Source of the DNA: a virus
Taxonomy: Duplodnaviria; Caudoviricetes
Virus record (IMG/VR): IMGVR_UViG_2885028616_000003
Span: 46,985 to 110,984 of that record
Reading direction: 5' to 3' (one strand)
Length of the DNA: 64,000 nt
Shown here: in pieces, positions 41,952-45,260 of the stretch
Layout of the letters: every line of letters starts with the position of its first letter
How positions within the stretch are numbered: the stretch's first letter is position 1
Program-made: the position numbers and the translations under genes
The notes under the pieces: model-generated
Seen by the model: the letters and a program-made list of their open reading frames with translations, nothing else
Databases searched by the model: none
What the model was told of the DNA's origin: nothing

Positions 41952-42125
41952 GGGGGTACGGGGCCCACCCCCTTTAGGACCTAAGGGGGTACACAGCCCA
42001 CCCCCTTTGAAGCGGTTAGGGGGTACAGGGCCCACCCCCTTAGTCCAAAGGGGGTATGGAGCCCACCCCCTTTGGACTGGCGGGCGCCCGGTTGTCCACA
42101 GGCCCGAGACGCCGGGTTGTCCACA
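41952..42125. repeat. Putative replication origin: four iterons and two DnaA boxes
   Basis: GGGGGTA-N4-GCCCACCCCCTT at 41952, 41985, 42019, 42050; TTGTCCACA at 42092 and 42117. Confidence 0.85.
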
Positions 42126-42129
42126 GGGA

Positions 42130-42504
42130 TCACGCGACCTCCTCGGCTGCCACGATCCGCGCGAACGCGGGCAGTTCGGGCAGCCGGAAGTCCATCGCGT
42201 GCCCCTTGGCCGCGTACACCGGATCGCCGTTCTTGTCCCGCTTCCACACCACGCGGACATCCAGCCCGCGCTCGGCGAGCCGCTGGAGGATCTTCTTGAG
42301 CCCCTGCGGGGACACCTTCGCTACCTGGCACAGCCGGTCGTACAAGTCGCAGTCGTCGTTCTTGAAACGGCGCATGTCCCGGGCCCGCTCGTCCAGGACA
42401 CGGTCCGCGATCGTCAGGAGCACGGCGAACTCCTTGTCCGACAGCTCCGCGCCCGCAGGCGTACGACGCCACTCGATGACGTCGCCCACGAGCTTCCCGC
42501 TCAA
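42130..42504 (-). CDS. Replication initiator-like winged-helix protein (short)
   Basis: LSDKEFAVLLTIAD...LQRLAERGL..R....K.G.PVYA.KG...FRLP; abuts the iterons. Confidence 0.65.
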   Translation of the reverse strand: MSGKLVGDVIEWRRTPAGAELSDKEFAVLLTIADRVLDERARDMRRFKNDDCDLYDRLCQVAKVSPQGLKKILQRLAERGLDVRVVWKRDKNGDPVYAAKGHAMDFRLPELPAFARIVAAEEVA

Positions 42505-42759
42505 TCCGCAGCCCTCCCACCTCTCTCAGCGCCTGGCTAGCCGTCATATGAGGGCTGGACCTCCTGTCGCTACGACCTGCTGAGAGTCACGTTGCGTAGA
42601 TTGAACATGACCAACTGTAGCGATCTCGGAGCATGATGTCAGGTCATGGCGTATGGTCATTCGGTGATGCTGTGATCGACGCCCCCGAAGCGAGGACATG
42701 CCGTGACTGCACTCCCTCTCCGTGCGAGCATGGCCACCGTGAGTGAGGGAGAGGACTCC

Positions 42760-42972
42760 GTGGAGACCAGGCTGAAGAAGGCCGTGCGCGGGTACCGGCG
42801 CGCCACCCAGGCGCGGATCGAGCTGCACGAAGCCATCAAGGCCGCCGCCGCCGGCGGCAAGACGCCGAAGCAGATCACGTTCCTGATCGACCACGAGTAC
42901 GACGTCGCGCACGTCTCGCGGATCATCCACGGCAAGGTCGGCGGCAAGCGGAAGCCCCCCGCCAAGGACTGA
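42760..42972 (+). CDS. Small HTH-like regulator
   Basis: ELHEAIKAAAAGG..PKQI......Y...HVSRI; GGAGAGGA RBS; divergent from rep. Confidence 0.65.
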   Translation: METRLKKAVRGYRRATQARIELHEAIKAAAAGGKTPKQITFLIDHEYDVAHVSRIIHGKVGGKRKPPAKD

Positions 42973-43047
42973 CCTGCTCGCGCGCCCTCCAGCGCGGCTC
43001 GTGCTGTCCGTCTCCCCCATCGATCCCCCGATCGTCGTTTTTCCTCA

Positions 43048-44066
43048 TGTGGTCTGGTCTGTCGGCTAGGCCGGGGACGGTCAGCGGCGACCAGGCCTGG
43101 CTAGTCGTTCCGGCGCGGTCCGGCTTGCTGCGGTCCGGCTTGTCGTTCTGGCGAGGCCCGTGCAGGGCGCGGCTAGTCGGTTCAGGGGCGGGCACGAGAC
43201 GGGATGGGTAGTCGGGATGGCAGGGCGAGGCTGGTTCTGGCAAGGCAAGTCGTTGCGGCATGGCGAGGACGGGCAGGGCCAGACAAGGCATGTCGGTGTG
43301 GCGAGGTGCGGCTGGGGTCGACGTGAGCTGTCGATCTGGTATGGCATGGCGAGGGCAGGCGAGGATCGGCAAGGCATGGCCTGGGTTGGCGAGTCGGCAT
43401 GGGATGGCGAGGCCGGATTAGGTACGTCGACGCGGTCTGGCGAGGCCGGGCTAGGCCTGTCGGCAGCGGGCAGACGGGGAAAGCAGGAGAAGGGACATGT
43501 CGGACTGAAAGGACCAGGCATGGCGAGTCGGCAAGGGCAGGCTTGGTCGAGACTTGGCGAGAAATGGCGAGTCGTGGCTATGTGGCGAGGACGGGCGGGG
43601 CCAGGCAAGGCAAGTCGGCGCGGCGAGCAGGGGCGGGGCCTGACTTGTCGAACGGGCACGGCGAGGTAAGGCGTGAGTTGGCAAGTCGAAGCGGCCTGGC
43701 ATAGCTCGACATGTCGCTGAGGCCGGGCGGGTGCGAGGCATGGCACGTCGGATGGGCACGGCATGGCACGGTCTGGCATGGCCCGTTCGGGGCCGGGCGA
43801 GAAGGGGCATGTCGGTGTGGCACGGCCCGGGTCGGCGGGGACAGGCGCCGGCGGGACGCGGCAAGGCTTGTCGCCGGAGGCGAGGGCGGGACGCGATGGG
43901 GGCGGGTGCACGTCATGACAAGTCGGCATGGCGAGGCGAGGGTTAGGCACGGACCGGCGAGGCGCGTCGGGCACGGTGCGGCGGGGTCCAAGCGTGGCGC
44001 GATTGGGGCTGTCGGCACGGCCGGGTCTGACCAGGGCGGGCGGGACTGGGCCTGTCGTGTTGGCTA
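43048..44066 (+). repeat. Pentamer-periodic array, 24 units of GTC + (GGY-NN)n; candidate guide-RNA array, not a CRISPR
   Basis: 25 GTCG delimiters between 43061 and 44054; 14 of 24 spacings are 5n+3 and 6 are 5n+4. Confidence 0.85.
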
Positions 44067-44096
44067 GCCGCATCGTGGTTCGCGGCGTCGCGGGTA

Positions 44097-44122
44097 GGCC
44101 GCCCGGACTGTGCCGGGCGGCC
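44097..44122. terminator. Perfect 10 bp hairpin between Cas7-like gene and array
   Basis: GGCCGCCCGG-ACTGTG-CCGGGCGGCC. Confidence 0.6.
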
Positions 44123-44130
44123 CGGTCACG

Positions 44131-44847
44131 CTACTGCTTGTCGAACGCGAGGAGCTCGAACTTGCCGTCCGAGCGGCCCCGGTCCGCGCCGATCCCGATG
44201 TCCTCGCCGCGCTCCCAAATCCGGCCCCAGGCCTCCATCGGCAGGAAGTCGTCGTGGACCCGGACCGTGAACTCCAGAAGCGGCTGCTCCACGTACTCGA
44301 CCCGGTTGATCGAGGAACGCGGCCCCTGCGGGGTCTTCACGTGCTTGATGCGCTCCTCGACCCCGTGCGGCTCCGTCACCCCGAGGTCGATGTACACCTC
44401 GGGGACGAACACCCTTTCGGCGAGGGTGGACATCAGCCCCTTCCGGAACCCCTTGGTGATCTTCGACTTGCCGGGGAAGTCCGTGCCCGGGTAGGCGGAG
44501 TTGGCCCACTCCTTCAGCGCGGCCTTCATGCACCGCCCCTCGTACCCCAGCGCCCCCGTGCCGGGGATGCGCTTGAAGCCGTTGACCGACACTTCCGCGT
44601 CCCCCGACTCCATCACCGCCTGCGCCAGCTCGTCCGCCGACGGCTGCCGGTCGGGGAACCGCTCCTTCAGCGTCGCGTCCGCCAGCTCCTGCAGGTCCCG
44701 GTCCCCCAGCTCCAGGCGGGTCTTCAGCCAGCCCTTGATCACGCTCGGGGACGAGGGGACCCCACCGACCAGCTTGTCGAGAACCTGCAGCCGCACCACG
44801 TACACCGCGACGTCCGACTTGGTCCCGAACACGTCCGTAGCACTCAT
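44131..44847 (-). CDS. Stand-alone Cas7/RAMP-like protein
   Basis: 238 aa; VRLQVLDKLVGGVP, GRCMKAALKE helix, GPRSSINRVE thumb-like segment, C-terminal G-rich loop GIGADRGRSDGKF. Confidence 0.75.
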   Translation of the reverse strand: MSATDVFGTKSDVAVYVVRLQVLDKLVGGVPSSPSVIKGWLKTRLELGDRDLQELADATLKERFPDRQPSADELAQAVMESGDAEVSVNGFKRIPGTGALGYEGRCMKAALKEWANSAYPGTDFPGKSKITKGFRKGLMSTLAERVFVPEVYIDLGVTEPHGVEERIKHVKTPQGPRSSINRVEYVEQPLLEFTVRVHDDFLPMEAWGRIWERGEDIGIGADRGRSDGKFELLAFDKQ

Positions 44848-45260
44848 CGTCCCGTCCCCTCCGAATGGACCGCCATCGCCGGCGCGGCGATCGCGTTCTG
44901 CGTCTTCACGCGCTCGGCTTCGAGTGCGCGCTTCAGAGACCCGTTCACGGTCTCCAAGTCCTTGATCTCGTTGCGGGCCGCCTCCAGGTCCGCCTCCACC
45001 GCAGAGCGGCCCTCGACCTCGCGGCGGACCTCGTCGAGCACGACGCCGGCGCGGCCGTAGGCGGCGAACGTGGCCTTCACCTCGGTCGCCTTCTGCACCG
45101 TCAGGTACAGGTCGAACACCTCGCGCGGGGTCTTGCCGCGCAGGCTCTTGCCGGTGATCGCCTCGATGTTCCGGCGCGCTTTCTCGTCGGTCTTCAGCAG
45201 CTCCACCACGGCGTCGAACTCCTCCGCCGAGTACTCCTGCGCCCTGCGTCGTCTCGCCAT
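44844..45260 (-). CDS. Coiled-coil protein coupled to the Cas7-like gene
   Basis: 138 aa, AGGAG RBS, ATGA overlap with downstream gene. Confidence 0.75.
   Translation of the reverse strand: MARRRRAQEYSAEEFDAVVELLKTDEKARRNIEAITGKSLRGKTPREVFDLYLTVQKATEVKATFAAYGRAGVVLDEVRREVEGRSAVEADLEAARNEIKDLETVNGSLKRALEAERVKTQNAIAAPAMAVHSEGTGR

What the first reader, a model, noticed from the sequence alone, without database searches (positions are those of the whole stretch)
43048..45260. Lone Cas7/RAMP-like gene beside a pentamer-coded repeat array: candidate phage RNA-guided system that is not CRISPR
Seen: ORF 44131-44847 has RAMP-like hallmarks (N-terminal strand ending LVGGVP, MKAALKE helix, C-terminal G-rich loop GIGADRGRSDGKF). 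No other cas gene or CRISPR repeat is in the window. Directly downstream, past a 10 bp hairpin, is a 1 kb array with 5-nt periodicity. Established: Cas7-family proteins polymerise along guide RNA with a fixed nucleotide step. Inference: each protomer binds one pentamer, the constant GGY acts as scaffold and the variable NN carries a discontinuous targeting code, giving a nuclease-free programmable binder or silencer, perhaps against rival phages. From memory this resembles the recently reported phage VIPR-type architecture; I could not verify that here.
Basis: partly seen in the sequence, partly recalled or inferred. Interest (0 to 1): 0.96.

Follow-up and report, generated by a model that had tools for sequence, protein, structure and literature searches.

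The report
Prophage VIPR system with unusual array
A prophage in a 9.5 Mb actinomycete genome carries a VIPR system, the CRISPR-related RNA-guided DNA-silencing kind published in 2026 (a small Cas7-like protein, a partner gene and about 27 five-base-repeat guide units), so it is a further example of a known kind whose array layout and strand are unusual.

Summary
ORF 44131-44847(-) folds as a Cas7-type RAMP: pLDDT 84, best PDB matches type VII Cas7 (Z 11.1) and Csm3 (Z 10.8). The 1 kb beside it has strong 5-nt periodicity (lag-5 identity 0.45, z 10.5 against shuffles).

This scan has noted VIPR loci in at least 124 other genomes.

What this work adds:
- All 13 close homologue loci carry the same array.
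- A 138-aa gene sits just upstream of vipr in at least 10 of 13 loci and is a vap candidate.
- The array is 27 tail-less units, each GTC plus 5-8 (up to 12) GGYNN pentamers. It ends in one conserved hairpin.
- The canonical GGY strand is antisense to vipr in all 21 loci examined. In the reference phage SUSP1 it is the sense strand.

So either the guides are made antisense to the operon, or this clade reads an RCC scaffold. Strand-specific RNA-seq would settle this.

No target was found in the host genome, 301 related genomes, IMG/VR, the metagenome contigs or the sibling loci.

Verdict: a new member of a known kind, of moderate interest.

The parts
43061..44053 (+). vrRNA-like array. It has 27 abutting units, each GTC followed by GGYNN pentamers. 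There are usually 5-8 pentamers (unit lengths 28/33/38/43 nt) and two units have 12. The strand shown is the canonical GGY strand, which is antisense to vipr; the true RNA strand is unresolved.
   Evidence: Lag-5 identity is 0.45 (z 10.5). GTCG spacing is 3 mod 5 in 15 of 28 intervals. The boundary logo reads GGCNN-GTC-GGYNN. The same architecture occurs in 13/13 homologue loci.
44054..44093 (+). Conserved array-terminal element, TTGGCTAGCC overlapping a 5-bp hairpin (GCCGC...GCGGC) and followed by GTCGCGGG. It lies at the vipr-proximal end, which is the 3' end on the GGY strand and the 5' end on the vipr-sense strand.
   Evidence: Alignment A3 of 13 loci. The innermost stem pair is T-A in most loci, C-G in the window and L003, and G-C in L012.
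44097..44122 (.). 10-bp GC-rich hairpin between the vipr stop codon and the array. It is terminator-like but has no T run on either strand.
   Evidence: Sequence. Comparable hairpins are seen in L002, L004 and L035.
44131..44847 (-). vipr: a 238-aa stand-alone RAMP. It has an RRM core, a helical-bundle insert (about residues 34-80), a beta-hairpin thumb (about 162-187) and a G-loop G218-x-G-A-D-R-G-R-S-D-G-K-F230.
   Evidence: AF2 pLDDT 84. Foldseek against PDB returns only Cas7-family hits at the top. VIA gives Z 11.1 and 10.8. BFVD returns viral RAMP-like proteins at 1e-11. The family numbers 890 clusters. Atlas neighbours are viral.
44844..45260 (-). vap candidate: a 138-aa helical protein, with a short N-terminal helical domain and a roughly 80-residue coiled-coil helix. 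Its stop overlaps the vipr start by 4 nt.
   Evidence: It is conserved directly upstream of vipr in 10 of 13 loci by tblastn, and coiled-coil ORFs sit in the same place in L012 and L014. Alignment A2. AF2 pLDDT 77. No family or informative fold match.
43021..43044 (+). Small hairpin plus T run on the GGY strand, just before the first unit. It is a terminator-like end of the upstream + strand gene. Context only.
42703..42972 (+). 89-aa gene, the only confident + strand gene for about 19 kb on either side. It is co-directional with the GGY strand and lies directly upstream of the array. Any role in array transcription is unknown. Context only.
   Evidence: GC3 0.91. No family hit. Not detected in other loci by tblastn.

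Best explanation
This is a prophage-borne VIPR (Viral Interference Programmable Repeat) system.

The two-gene operon on the minus strand, 44844-45260 then 44131-44847, encodes an accessory protein candidate and Vipr. Vipr is a minimal stand-alone Cas7-like RAMP.

The adjacent 1 kb array encodes the guides. These are runs of GGYNN pentamers in which GG(Y) is the constant scaffold held by Vipr protomers, one protomer per pentamer. The NN dinucleotides carry the address.

By analogy with the characterised type II systems, the filament would bind double-stranded DNA by pairing each NN with the target while skipping every third base. That skipped base is the codon wobble position. Binding would silence transcription of a rival phage, satellite or other mobile element without cutting it.

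In this clade the guides are short: 5-8 pentamers, so 10-16 specified bases. They have no individual 3' tails and are separated only by a GTC trinucleotide. That suggests processing of a long precursor at or near GUC.

I take the guide strand to be the canonical G-rich + strand, transcribed antisense to vipr and ending at the conserved hairpin. I put this at about 2:1 over the sense strand.

Shown here: the fold, the array, the array-gene linkage and the prophage context. Inferred from the literature: RNA binding, the gapped code and silencing. Not shown: transcription, processing and targets.
For: - Fold. AF2 pLDDT is 84. The top Foldseek PDB hits are all Csm3, Cmr4, Cas7-11 or type VII Cas7 (E 5e-6). 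VIA-align gives Z 11.1 (8yhd_A), 10.8 (9g9a_D) and 9.9 (7wah_A), and 23 of the top 24 hits are CRISPR RAMPs. The best viral hits are RAMP-like phage and archaeal-virus proteins (1e-11 to 8.5e-4).
- Array. Lag-5 z is 10.5, with GG at pentamer positions 1-2 (83% and 74%) and near-uniform NN. NN dinucleotide usage is close to uniform (-4.00 bits per dinucleotide). It fits codon positions 1-2 (-4.03) and not phases that include the wobble base (-4.9 to -5.1), in a 72% GC genome.
- Linkage. All 13 close homologue loci, and 7 of 10 distant homologue contigs, have such an array next to the gene.
- Guide turnover. Guide content differs almost completely between loci while the scaffold is kept.
- Partner gene. 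It is conserved in at least 10 of 13 loci.
- Context. The window carries portal, terminase, capsid/protease and RecE/RecT genes. No CRISPR repeat family is found in the window, and the host's only cas1 hit lies 4.1 Mb away.
- Literature.
- G-loop. GIGADRGRSDGKF aligns co-linearly with the SUSP1 Vipr G-loop GVGDWRPRFGRF, though only weakly (hhalign E 0.005).
Against: - No significant sequence similarity to the reference Vipr of SUSP1. The hhalign probability is 7% and phmmer against PDB finds nothing.
- No per-unit 3' tail or pseudoknot, unlike type II vrRNAs.
- Units of 5-8 pentamers are shorter than the published 9-16.
- The GGY strand is antisense to vipr in all 21 loci examined. In several loci the array abuts the RBS of vipr or of the next co-directional gene, which implies that the other strand is transcribed.
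- No sigma-70-like promoter was found for either strand.
- 39% of third pentamer positions are purines, whereas the SUSP1 pocket excludes purines.
Confidence: 0.55

Rival explanations
1. It is the same VIPR-type system, but the functional guide is the vipr-sense, C-rich strand. The array would be co-transcribed with, or just after, vap-vipr. Each unit would read (NN-RCC)n followed by GAC, and this Vipr clade would hold an RCC scaffold instead of GGY. The conserved GCTAGCC/hairpin element would then be a 5' leader.
For: - The C-rich strand is co-directional with vipr in the window, in 13/13 close loci and in 7/7 distant loci that have an array. This holds whether the array lies downstream or upstream of vipr.
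- In L031 and L036 the array ends within about 50 nt of the vipr RBS. In L002, L006 and L007 it ends at the RBS of the next co-directional gene. L029 and L036 are fully unidirectional phage regions.
- In SUSP1 the guide strand is the vipr-sense strand.
- Non-GGY scaffolds such as GAC, CAC, WGT and TGH are in print.
- The Asp that reads G1 in SUSP1 (D177) has no conserved counterpart in the broad family alignment.
- The C-rich RNA is predicted to be far less structured: -116 kcal/mol (z +1.1) against -214 kcal/mol (z -3.6) for the G-rich RNA.
Against: - The scaffold would have to be the exact complement of the canonical GGY. By my estimate that coincidence has a chance of about 3-5%.
- Conserved orientation may only reflect descent in collinear phage genomes.
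- Read-through of the sense strand does not exclude an antisense promoter.
- The window has a + strand gene directly upstream of the array on the GGY strand, and a strong hairpin between vipr and the array.
Confidence: 0.33
2. The protein is a RAMP, but the array is not a set of guides. It could be a structured untranslated region or antisense regulator of the operon, a DNA-level element (G-quadruplex-prone GGN3GG tracts, or a protein-binding or silencing nucleation site), or a decayed relic.
For: - No target was found for any unit.
- Many units have register shifts. Only 68 of 166 GTCG spacings across loci are 3 mod 5.
- Units are short.
- The prophage also encodes an Lsr2-domain DNA binder.
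Against: - The array is conserved next to the gene across a family spanning 30-95% protein identity, with the scaffold kept and the NN content turning over.
- NN composition is held near uniform against a 72% GC mutational background.
- The published systems show exactly this anatomy working as guides. The paper itself notes frequent internal degeneracy of vrRNAs.
Confidence: 0.08
3. It is an orphan Cas7 fragment of a CRISPR-Cas system lying by chance next to a low-complexity G-rich tract.
For: The fold matches type III and type VII Cas7 proteins. The host has cas1 elsewhere in the genome.
Against: - No CRISPR repeat family reaches its score in the window, and the host's only cas1 hit lies 4.1 Mb away.
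- The gene is in a prophage.
- The gene-array pairing recurs in 13/13 close loci and 7/10 distant contigs.
- Periodicity z is 10.5.
- The nearest Atlas clusters are 92-100% viral.
Confidence: 0.02

Closest known systems
Type II VIPR of Escherichia phage SUSP1 and the Pseudomonas fulva prophage (bioRxiv 10.64898/2026.04.26.720920, .720927 and 10.64898/2026.10.15.759431)
   Same: - A stand-alone minimal RAMP with RRM core, thumb, helical bundle and G-loop.
- A two-gene vipr/vap operon in a phage.
- An adjacent non-coding array of pentamers with constant GG(Y) and hypervariable NN.
- No nuclease gene and no CRISPR array nearby.
   Different: - No significant sequence similarity, for Vipr or for vap.
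- The protein is 238 aa against 195 aa.
- Gene order is vap then vipr, instead of vipr then vap1.
- Guides have 5-8 pentamers with no individual tail or pseudoknot and are separated only by GTC. SUSP1 has 9-16 pentamers plus a structured tail.
- About 27 units against 4.
- The GGY strand is antisense to vipr, whereas in SUSP1 it is the sense strand.
- The third pentamer position is only 61% pyrimidine.
'Staggered vrRNA arrays' noted for other VIPR types (fig. S18 legend of 10.64898/2026.04.26.720920), together with the NNNGG-type repeats in that paper's methods
   Same: [quoted passage not shown] The methods list NNNGG repeats as an accepted variant. Both descriptions fit this array.
   Different: Only the legend is available to me. 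I cannot see which type, taxon, delimiter or strand it refers to. The paper says that only the ribozyme-interspersed and single-vrRNA architectures were confirmed by sRNA-seq. Identity with this architecture is therefore likely but unverified.
Cas7-family backbone subunits of class 1 CRISPR effectors (Csm3, Cmr4, type VII Cas7, Cas7-11 domains)
   Same: The fold is shared: Z 9-11 over 130-180 residues, with 10-20% identity. These subunits also polymerise along guide RNA with a fixed step and use a thumb to flip bases.
   Different: - No CRISPR repeats and no other cas genes nearby.
- A 5-nt rather than 6-nt step.
- A helical bundle is built into the same chain.
- The gene is phage-borne.
Non-canonical VIPR-like arrays found by a genomic language model (bioRxiv 10.64898/2026.10.21.760802): 99 period-5 clusters, 21 of them with non-GGY scaffolds
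   Same: Period-5 arrays lie beside Vipr-like folds. A distant relative of this Vipr (L027) has an array mixing GGC/NN and GAC/NN pentamers on the antisense strand, and GAC/NN is one of the motifs that paper names.
   Different: That paper describes units of about 10 repeats. The parts I read do not mention GTC-delimited short units or an RCC reading.

Membership tests
VIPR system | Vipr protein: a minimal stand-alone RAMP with RRM core, glycine-rich loop and thumb | tested here: met
   AF2 pLDDT 84. The model shows a beta1-alpha-beta core, a beta-hairpin at 162-187, the G-loop G218..F230 and a helical insert at 34-80. Cas7-family matches reach Z 11.1 and 10.8 and Foldseek E 5e-6.
VIPR system | An adjacent non-coding array of tandem YNNGG (or NNNGG) pentamers, with at least 4 repeats per vrRNA | tested here: met
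   27 units of mostly 5-8 in-phase pentamers, with GG at 83% and 74% and Y at 61%. The same is seen in 13/13 homologue loci. The motif is on the strand antisense to vipr.
VIPR system | A minimal locus of vipr plus one accessory (vap) gene, with no CRISPR array or cas operon | tested here: met
   A 138-aa gene overlaps the vipr start and is conserved in at least 10 of 13 loci. No Rfam CRISPR repeat family is found in the window, and the only cas1 hit is 4.1 Mb away. The partner has no detectable similarity to SUSP1 vap1. Similarity to vap2-6 could not be tested.
VIPR system | Viral or proviral context | tested here: met
   Portal, large terminase, capsid/protease and RecE/RecT genes are in the window. 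It lies in a 9.5 Mb chromosome.
VIPR system | Sequence membership in the published Vipr set (PSI-BLAST from X1U2U4) and assignment to one of types I-VII | tested here: inconclusive
   hhalign of a 49-sequence family profile against SUSP1 Vipr gives E 0.0048 and probability 7%. The alignment is co-linear over the C-terminal 60 residues, including the G-loop. X1U2U4 and the type tables were not available to me.
VIPR system | Each vrRNA has a conserved structured 3' tail (type II) | tested here: not met
   Units abut and are separated only by GTC. There is one conserved hairpin for the whole array. The paper allows other architectures for other types.
VIPR system | vrRNAs are expressed and co-purify with Vipr, and targets obey the 1-nt-skip NN code | not testable with these tools
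   No transcriptome was available. Target searches found nothing significant. NN composition is compatible with codon positions 1-2.
Class 1 CRISPR-Cas effector (Cas7 subunit) | Encoded in a cas operon beside a CRISPR repeat-spacer array | tested here: not met
   No CRISPR repeat family is found in the window. The neighbours are phage regulatory genes. The host cas1 is 4.1 Mb away.

The most novel reading that the evidence does not exclude
In this large Vipr clade (890 clusters at 50% identity), the canonical GGY strand is always antisense to vipr, and the guides are tail-less mini-units of 5-8 pentamers cut at a GUC/GAC trinucleotide.

The most novel reading that the evidence does not exclude has two forms. 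In the first, the clade's real guide is the sense-strand (NN-RCC)n RNA, so a RAMP filament reads a complementary, cytosine-based scaffold. In the second, both strands are transcribed and guide maturation depends on the resulting double-stranded RNA.

Either form would be a mechanistically distinct branch of VIPR, not just another member.
Probability: 0.3. Interest if true: 0.7.

Novelty: new member of a known kind. Interest (0 to 1): 0.4.

Why it matters
VIPR is a newly described programmable DNA-binding system, proposed as the ancestor of CRISPR RAMP effectors. So far only types II, III and V have experimental support.

This locus places a well-conserved clade in prophages of high-GC filamentous actinomycetes (Actinomadura, Nonomuraea, Streptosporangium and relatives). 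It carries the densest array I saw among the loci examined here: 27 units in 1 kb.

Its architecture puts three questions to the published model:
- How are tail-less, abutting guides matured and capped?
- Can 10-16 specified bases give useful specificity in a 9.5 Mb genome?
- Which strand is the guide?

If the sense-strand reading holds, the scaffold-recognition code of Vipr proteins is more plastic than the solved structures suggest. That would matter for engineering orthogonal VIPR tools. If it does not hold, this is one more catalogued VIPR locus.

Tried and rejected
**Family libraries.** Pfam, PHROGs, NCBIfam and PADLOC give no hit for Vipr or for the partner gene.

**Sequence links to solved or reference proteins.**
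- phmmer against PDB gives only spurious TPR and cytochrome hits.
- A family profile against PDB gives only weak Csm4 G-loop matches, E 0.05.
- hhalign against SUSP1 Vipr gives nothing with the narrow profile and E 0.0048 at 7% probability with the broad one. That is too weak to claim homology.
- The partner gene against SUSP1 vap1 gives nothing.

**Partner gene fold.** The fold search and the Atlas return only generic coiled coils, so they give no functional lead.

**RNA families.** Rfam on the locus at E <= 1, and on the whole window at gathering score, finds nothing, hammerhead ribozymes and CRISPR repeats included.

**Promoters and terminators.** A sigma-70 promoter scan finds none for either strand of the array, here or in the 51% GC relative L029.

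**Target searches with the 1-nt-skip code.**
- Own genome: no exact match for any unit with 8 or more NN. The skip-3 pattern finds only the array itself. The excess of near-matches at skip 1 looks like codon periodicity, not targeting.
- The 11-NN core of unit 43330 gives 0 hits in IMG/VR, 0 in 301 genomes of the same family at up to 2 mismatches, and 0 in the metagenome contigs.
- Unit 43249 (8 NN) gives 10 IMG/VR hits. All are in unrelated, mostly coiled-coil ORFs of contigs with 30-67% GC, so they are chance matches.
- 57 guides from 14 loci, searched against 169 kb of the window plus the sibling loci, give 0 hits. Shuffled controls give 0-6.

**Other period-5 tracts in the genome.** Several were inspected. 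One is a coding low-complexity repeat, one is a 35-nt tandem repeat and one is a weak NGCGG tract. None is a convincing orphan array.

**RNAfold z-scores of the two strands.** These do not decide the strand.

**Not run.** Complex prediction was not used, because I make no claim that the two proteins bind.
Full report
**Observation**

The window is part of a single 9.5 Mb actinomycete chromosome. Most of it is a prophage. Portal, large terminase, capsid/protease and RecE/RecT genes all lie on the minus strand.

Its stop codon is followed by a 10-bp GC hairpin at 44097-44122. After that comes about 1 kb that no frame explains.

In that stretch the lag-5 identity is 0.45. The genome-wide mean is about 0.29 and shuffles give 0.317 +/- 0.012, so z is 10.5. 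Lag-3 identity is only 0.255. The ten highest lag-5 windows of the whole 64 kb all fall in this stretch.

**Anatomy of the array**

Read on the + strand, the stretch splits at every GTCG into 27 units plus a terminal element. Each unit is GTC followed by in-phase pentamers. The pentamer composition is G .83, G .74, C .48/G .30/T .13, then two variable bases. This is the GGY/NN (or NNNGG) pentamer.

Unit lengths cluster at 28, 33, 38 and 43 nt, which is 5n+3 and so 5-8 pentamers. Two units have 12 pentamers. The boundary logo over 14 loci is GGC-N-N / GTC / GG-Y-N-N, so GTC is a 3-nt insert between two phased runs. Single-base register slips are common.

The variable dinucleotides are used almost uniformly, although the genome is 72% GC. 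They fit codon positions 1-2 (-4.03 bits per dinucleotide) much better than any phase that includes the wobble base (-4.9 to -5.1). TA is the rarest dinucleotide, as it is at codon positions 1-2.

At the vipr-proximal end there is one conserved element, TTGGCTAGCC. It overlaps a 5-bp hairpin whose inner pair covaries across loci as T-A, C-G and G-C. No Rfam family matches.

**The protein**

No Pfam, PHROG, NCBIfam or PADLOC model matches. With a 34-sequence alignment, AlphaFold2 gives pLDDT 84.

Foldseek against the PDB returns only Cas7-family chains at the top: Csm3, Cmr4, type VII Cas7 and Cas7-11, with E from 5e-6. The Foldseek-independent search gives:
- type VII Cas7, Z 11.1
- Csm3, Z 10.8
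- Cas7-11, Z 9.9
- Cmr4, Z 9.0 (4w8w) and 9.8 (6s6b)

In that search 23 of the first 24 rows are CRISPR RAMPs.

Among predicted viral structures the best matches are RAMP-like proteins of phages and archaeal viruses, from 1e-11 to 8.5e-4. The nearest language-model clusters are 92-100% viral.

The model shows the RRM core, a helical-bundle insert, a beta-hairpin thumb and the glycine-rich loop. These are the parts that the VIPR papers describe.

**Relatives**

The word-indexed search finds 307 relatives, all labelled 'hypothetical'. The named ones come from Actinomadura, Nonomuraea, Streptosporangium, Microbispora and other Streptosporangiales genera. The exhaustive profile search finds 890 clusters at 50% identity.

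All 13 species-representative loci have the same GTC-delimited pentamer array directly after the gene. Seven of ten contigs of distant relatives (30-43% identity) also have a period-5 array next to the gene. The other three contigs are short.

Guide content is almost entirely different between loci. Only close relatives share a few units.

A 138-aa helical, coiled-coil gene overlaps the vipr start. It is found in the same place in at least 10 of 13 loci. This is the position of a vap gene, but it has no detectable similarity to SUSP1 vap1 and no informative fold match.

**What it is**

VIPR systems pair a stand-alone RAMP (Vipr) with vrRNAs made of YNNGG repeats. One protomer binds one repeat. 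The GGY bases are flipped into protein pockets. The NN bases pair with double-stranded DNA while every third target base, usually the codon wobble, is skipped. The outcome is transcriptional silencing of rival phages and satellites.

Seven types are defined. Their array architectures vary and include 'staggered' arrays, in which one vrRNA ends where the next begins.

The present locus meets every anatomical criterion I could test. The scan's own records show VIPR loci noted in at least 124 other genomes, and one other window holds a close relative of this very family. The finding is therefore a member of a known kind.

**How this locus differs from the characterised systems**

I fetched phage SUSP1 and located its Vipr. 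It is a 195-aa protein with the published H17 and D177-W178-R179 residues.

In SUSP1 the YNNGG strand is the vipr-sense strand. Each guide has 12 or more pentamers flanked by structured constant regions.

The differences here are:
- The guides are short.
- They have no individual tails and abut each other.
- There are many of them.
- The GGY strand is antisense to vipr.

The antisense orientation holds in all 21 loci with an array. It holds whether the array lies downstream of vipr (the window, 13 close loci, L027, L028, L032, L035) or upstream (L030, L031, L036).

In L031 and L036 the array runs to within about 50 nt of the vipr ribosome-binding site. In L002, L006 and L007 it runs up to the RBS of the next co-directional gene. 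The C-rich sense strand is therefore very probably transcribed.

**Which strand is the guide?**

Two readings remain.

- The G-rich strand. One strand of the array is the canonical VIPR scaffold, and an exact complement arising by chance is unlikely. By my estimate that chance is about 3-5%. The window also has its only nearby + strand gene right upstream of the array, and a strong hairpin separates the array from vipr.
- The C-rich sense strand. The evidence here is the operon logic above, the lack of a conserved counterpart of the guanine-reading Asp in the broad family alignment, published non-GGY scaffolds, and a much less structured predicted RNA.

Conserved orientation could also be simple descent in collinear phage genomes. 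I put the odds at roughly 2:1 for the G-rich strand and mark the question as open.

**Targets**

Applying the published 1-nt-skip code found nothing significant in the host genome, in 301 genomes of the same family, in IMG/VR, in the metagenome contigs, or in the sibling loci.

The absence of self-targets agrees with the published systems. The failure to find foreign targets may only reflect how few phages of these hosts are sequenced. I could also scan only single exact or near-exact patterns.

Units of 10-16 specified bases would have chance matches in a 9.5 Mb genome. Specificity therefore either relies on something more, or several units act together.

**Verdict**

- The kind is already known.

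This is a new member in actinomycete prophages, probably of the 'staggered array' architecture. It leaves one unexplained and testable feature, the antisense or complementary strand relation.

Noticed in passing
window 41952-42077: A 33-bp tandem repeat of 3.9 copies (consensus begins GGGGGTACAGAGCCCACCCCC), next to the minus-strand gene 42130-42504 in the prophage early region. It could be an operator or iteron set.
   Followed up: no
window 51398-52306 (-): A 302-aa prophage protein with a C-terminal Lsr2 DNA-binding domain (PF23359, E 1.5e-12). This is a phage-borne homologue of the actinobacterial xenogeneic silencer, about 7 kb from the VIPR locus.
   Followed up: no
window 43249-43291 and 43571-43613: Two units of the array are paralogues (81% identical). 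Their NN series are GC AT GA CG AG CA AA AT and GC GT GA CG GG CA AA AA. Read as codon positions 1-2, they spell similar peptides (A-I/M-D/E-R-S/R-Q/H-K/N versus A-V-D/E-R-G-Q/H-K/N). This is what guides against two alleles of one gene would look like.
   Followed up: partly
L027:850-1150: A distant Vipr relative has an array that mixes NN-GCC and NN-GTC pentamers on the vipr-sense strand. On the other strand these read GGC/NN and GAC/NN. GAC/NN is a non-canonical scaffold named in bioRxiv 10.64898/2026.10.21.760802.
   Followed up: partly
L030:331-2400: Another distant relative carries a roughly 2.1 kb array upstream of vipr. Its first 600 nt are punctuated by a repeated AAATGAC motif instead of CGAC, so it may be a second array type in one locus.
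   Followed up: no
L028/L029:3600-3680: In a 51% GC groundwater phage contig, the array beside the Vipr relative is followed directly by what looks like a tRNA gene on the same strand, and every called gene on the contig is co-directional. The tRNA was not checked with ARAGORN.
   Followed up: no
own genome C1:4847478-4848347: The host chromosome encodes a full-length Cas1 (299 bits). The lysogen therefore has a CRISPR-Cas locus as well as the prophage VIPR system.
   Followed up: no
own genome C1:1166150-1166750: An intergenic tract with lag-5 identity 0.44-0.50, made largely of NGCGG-like pentamers preceded by CCGCGCAG repeats. It is not clearly a guide array and no vipr lies nearby.
   Followed up: partly
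window about 52000-55000: An earlier first-reader note (e1-5865196) claims a second, Tas-like RNA-guided module about 8 kb from the VIPR locus. I saw only that 52911-54275(-) matches a PHROG 'transposase' family (E 3e-78) and did not examine the claim.
   Followed up: no
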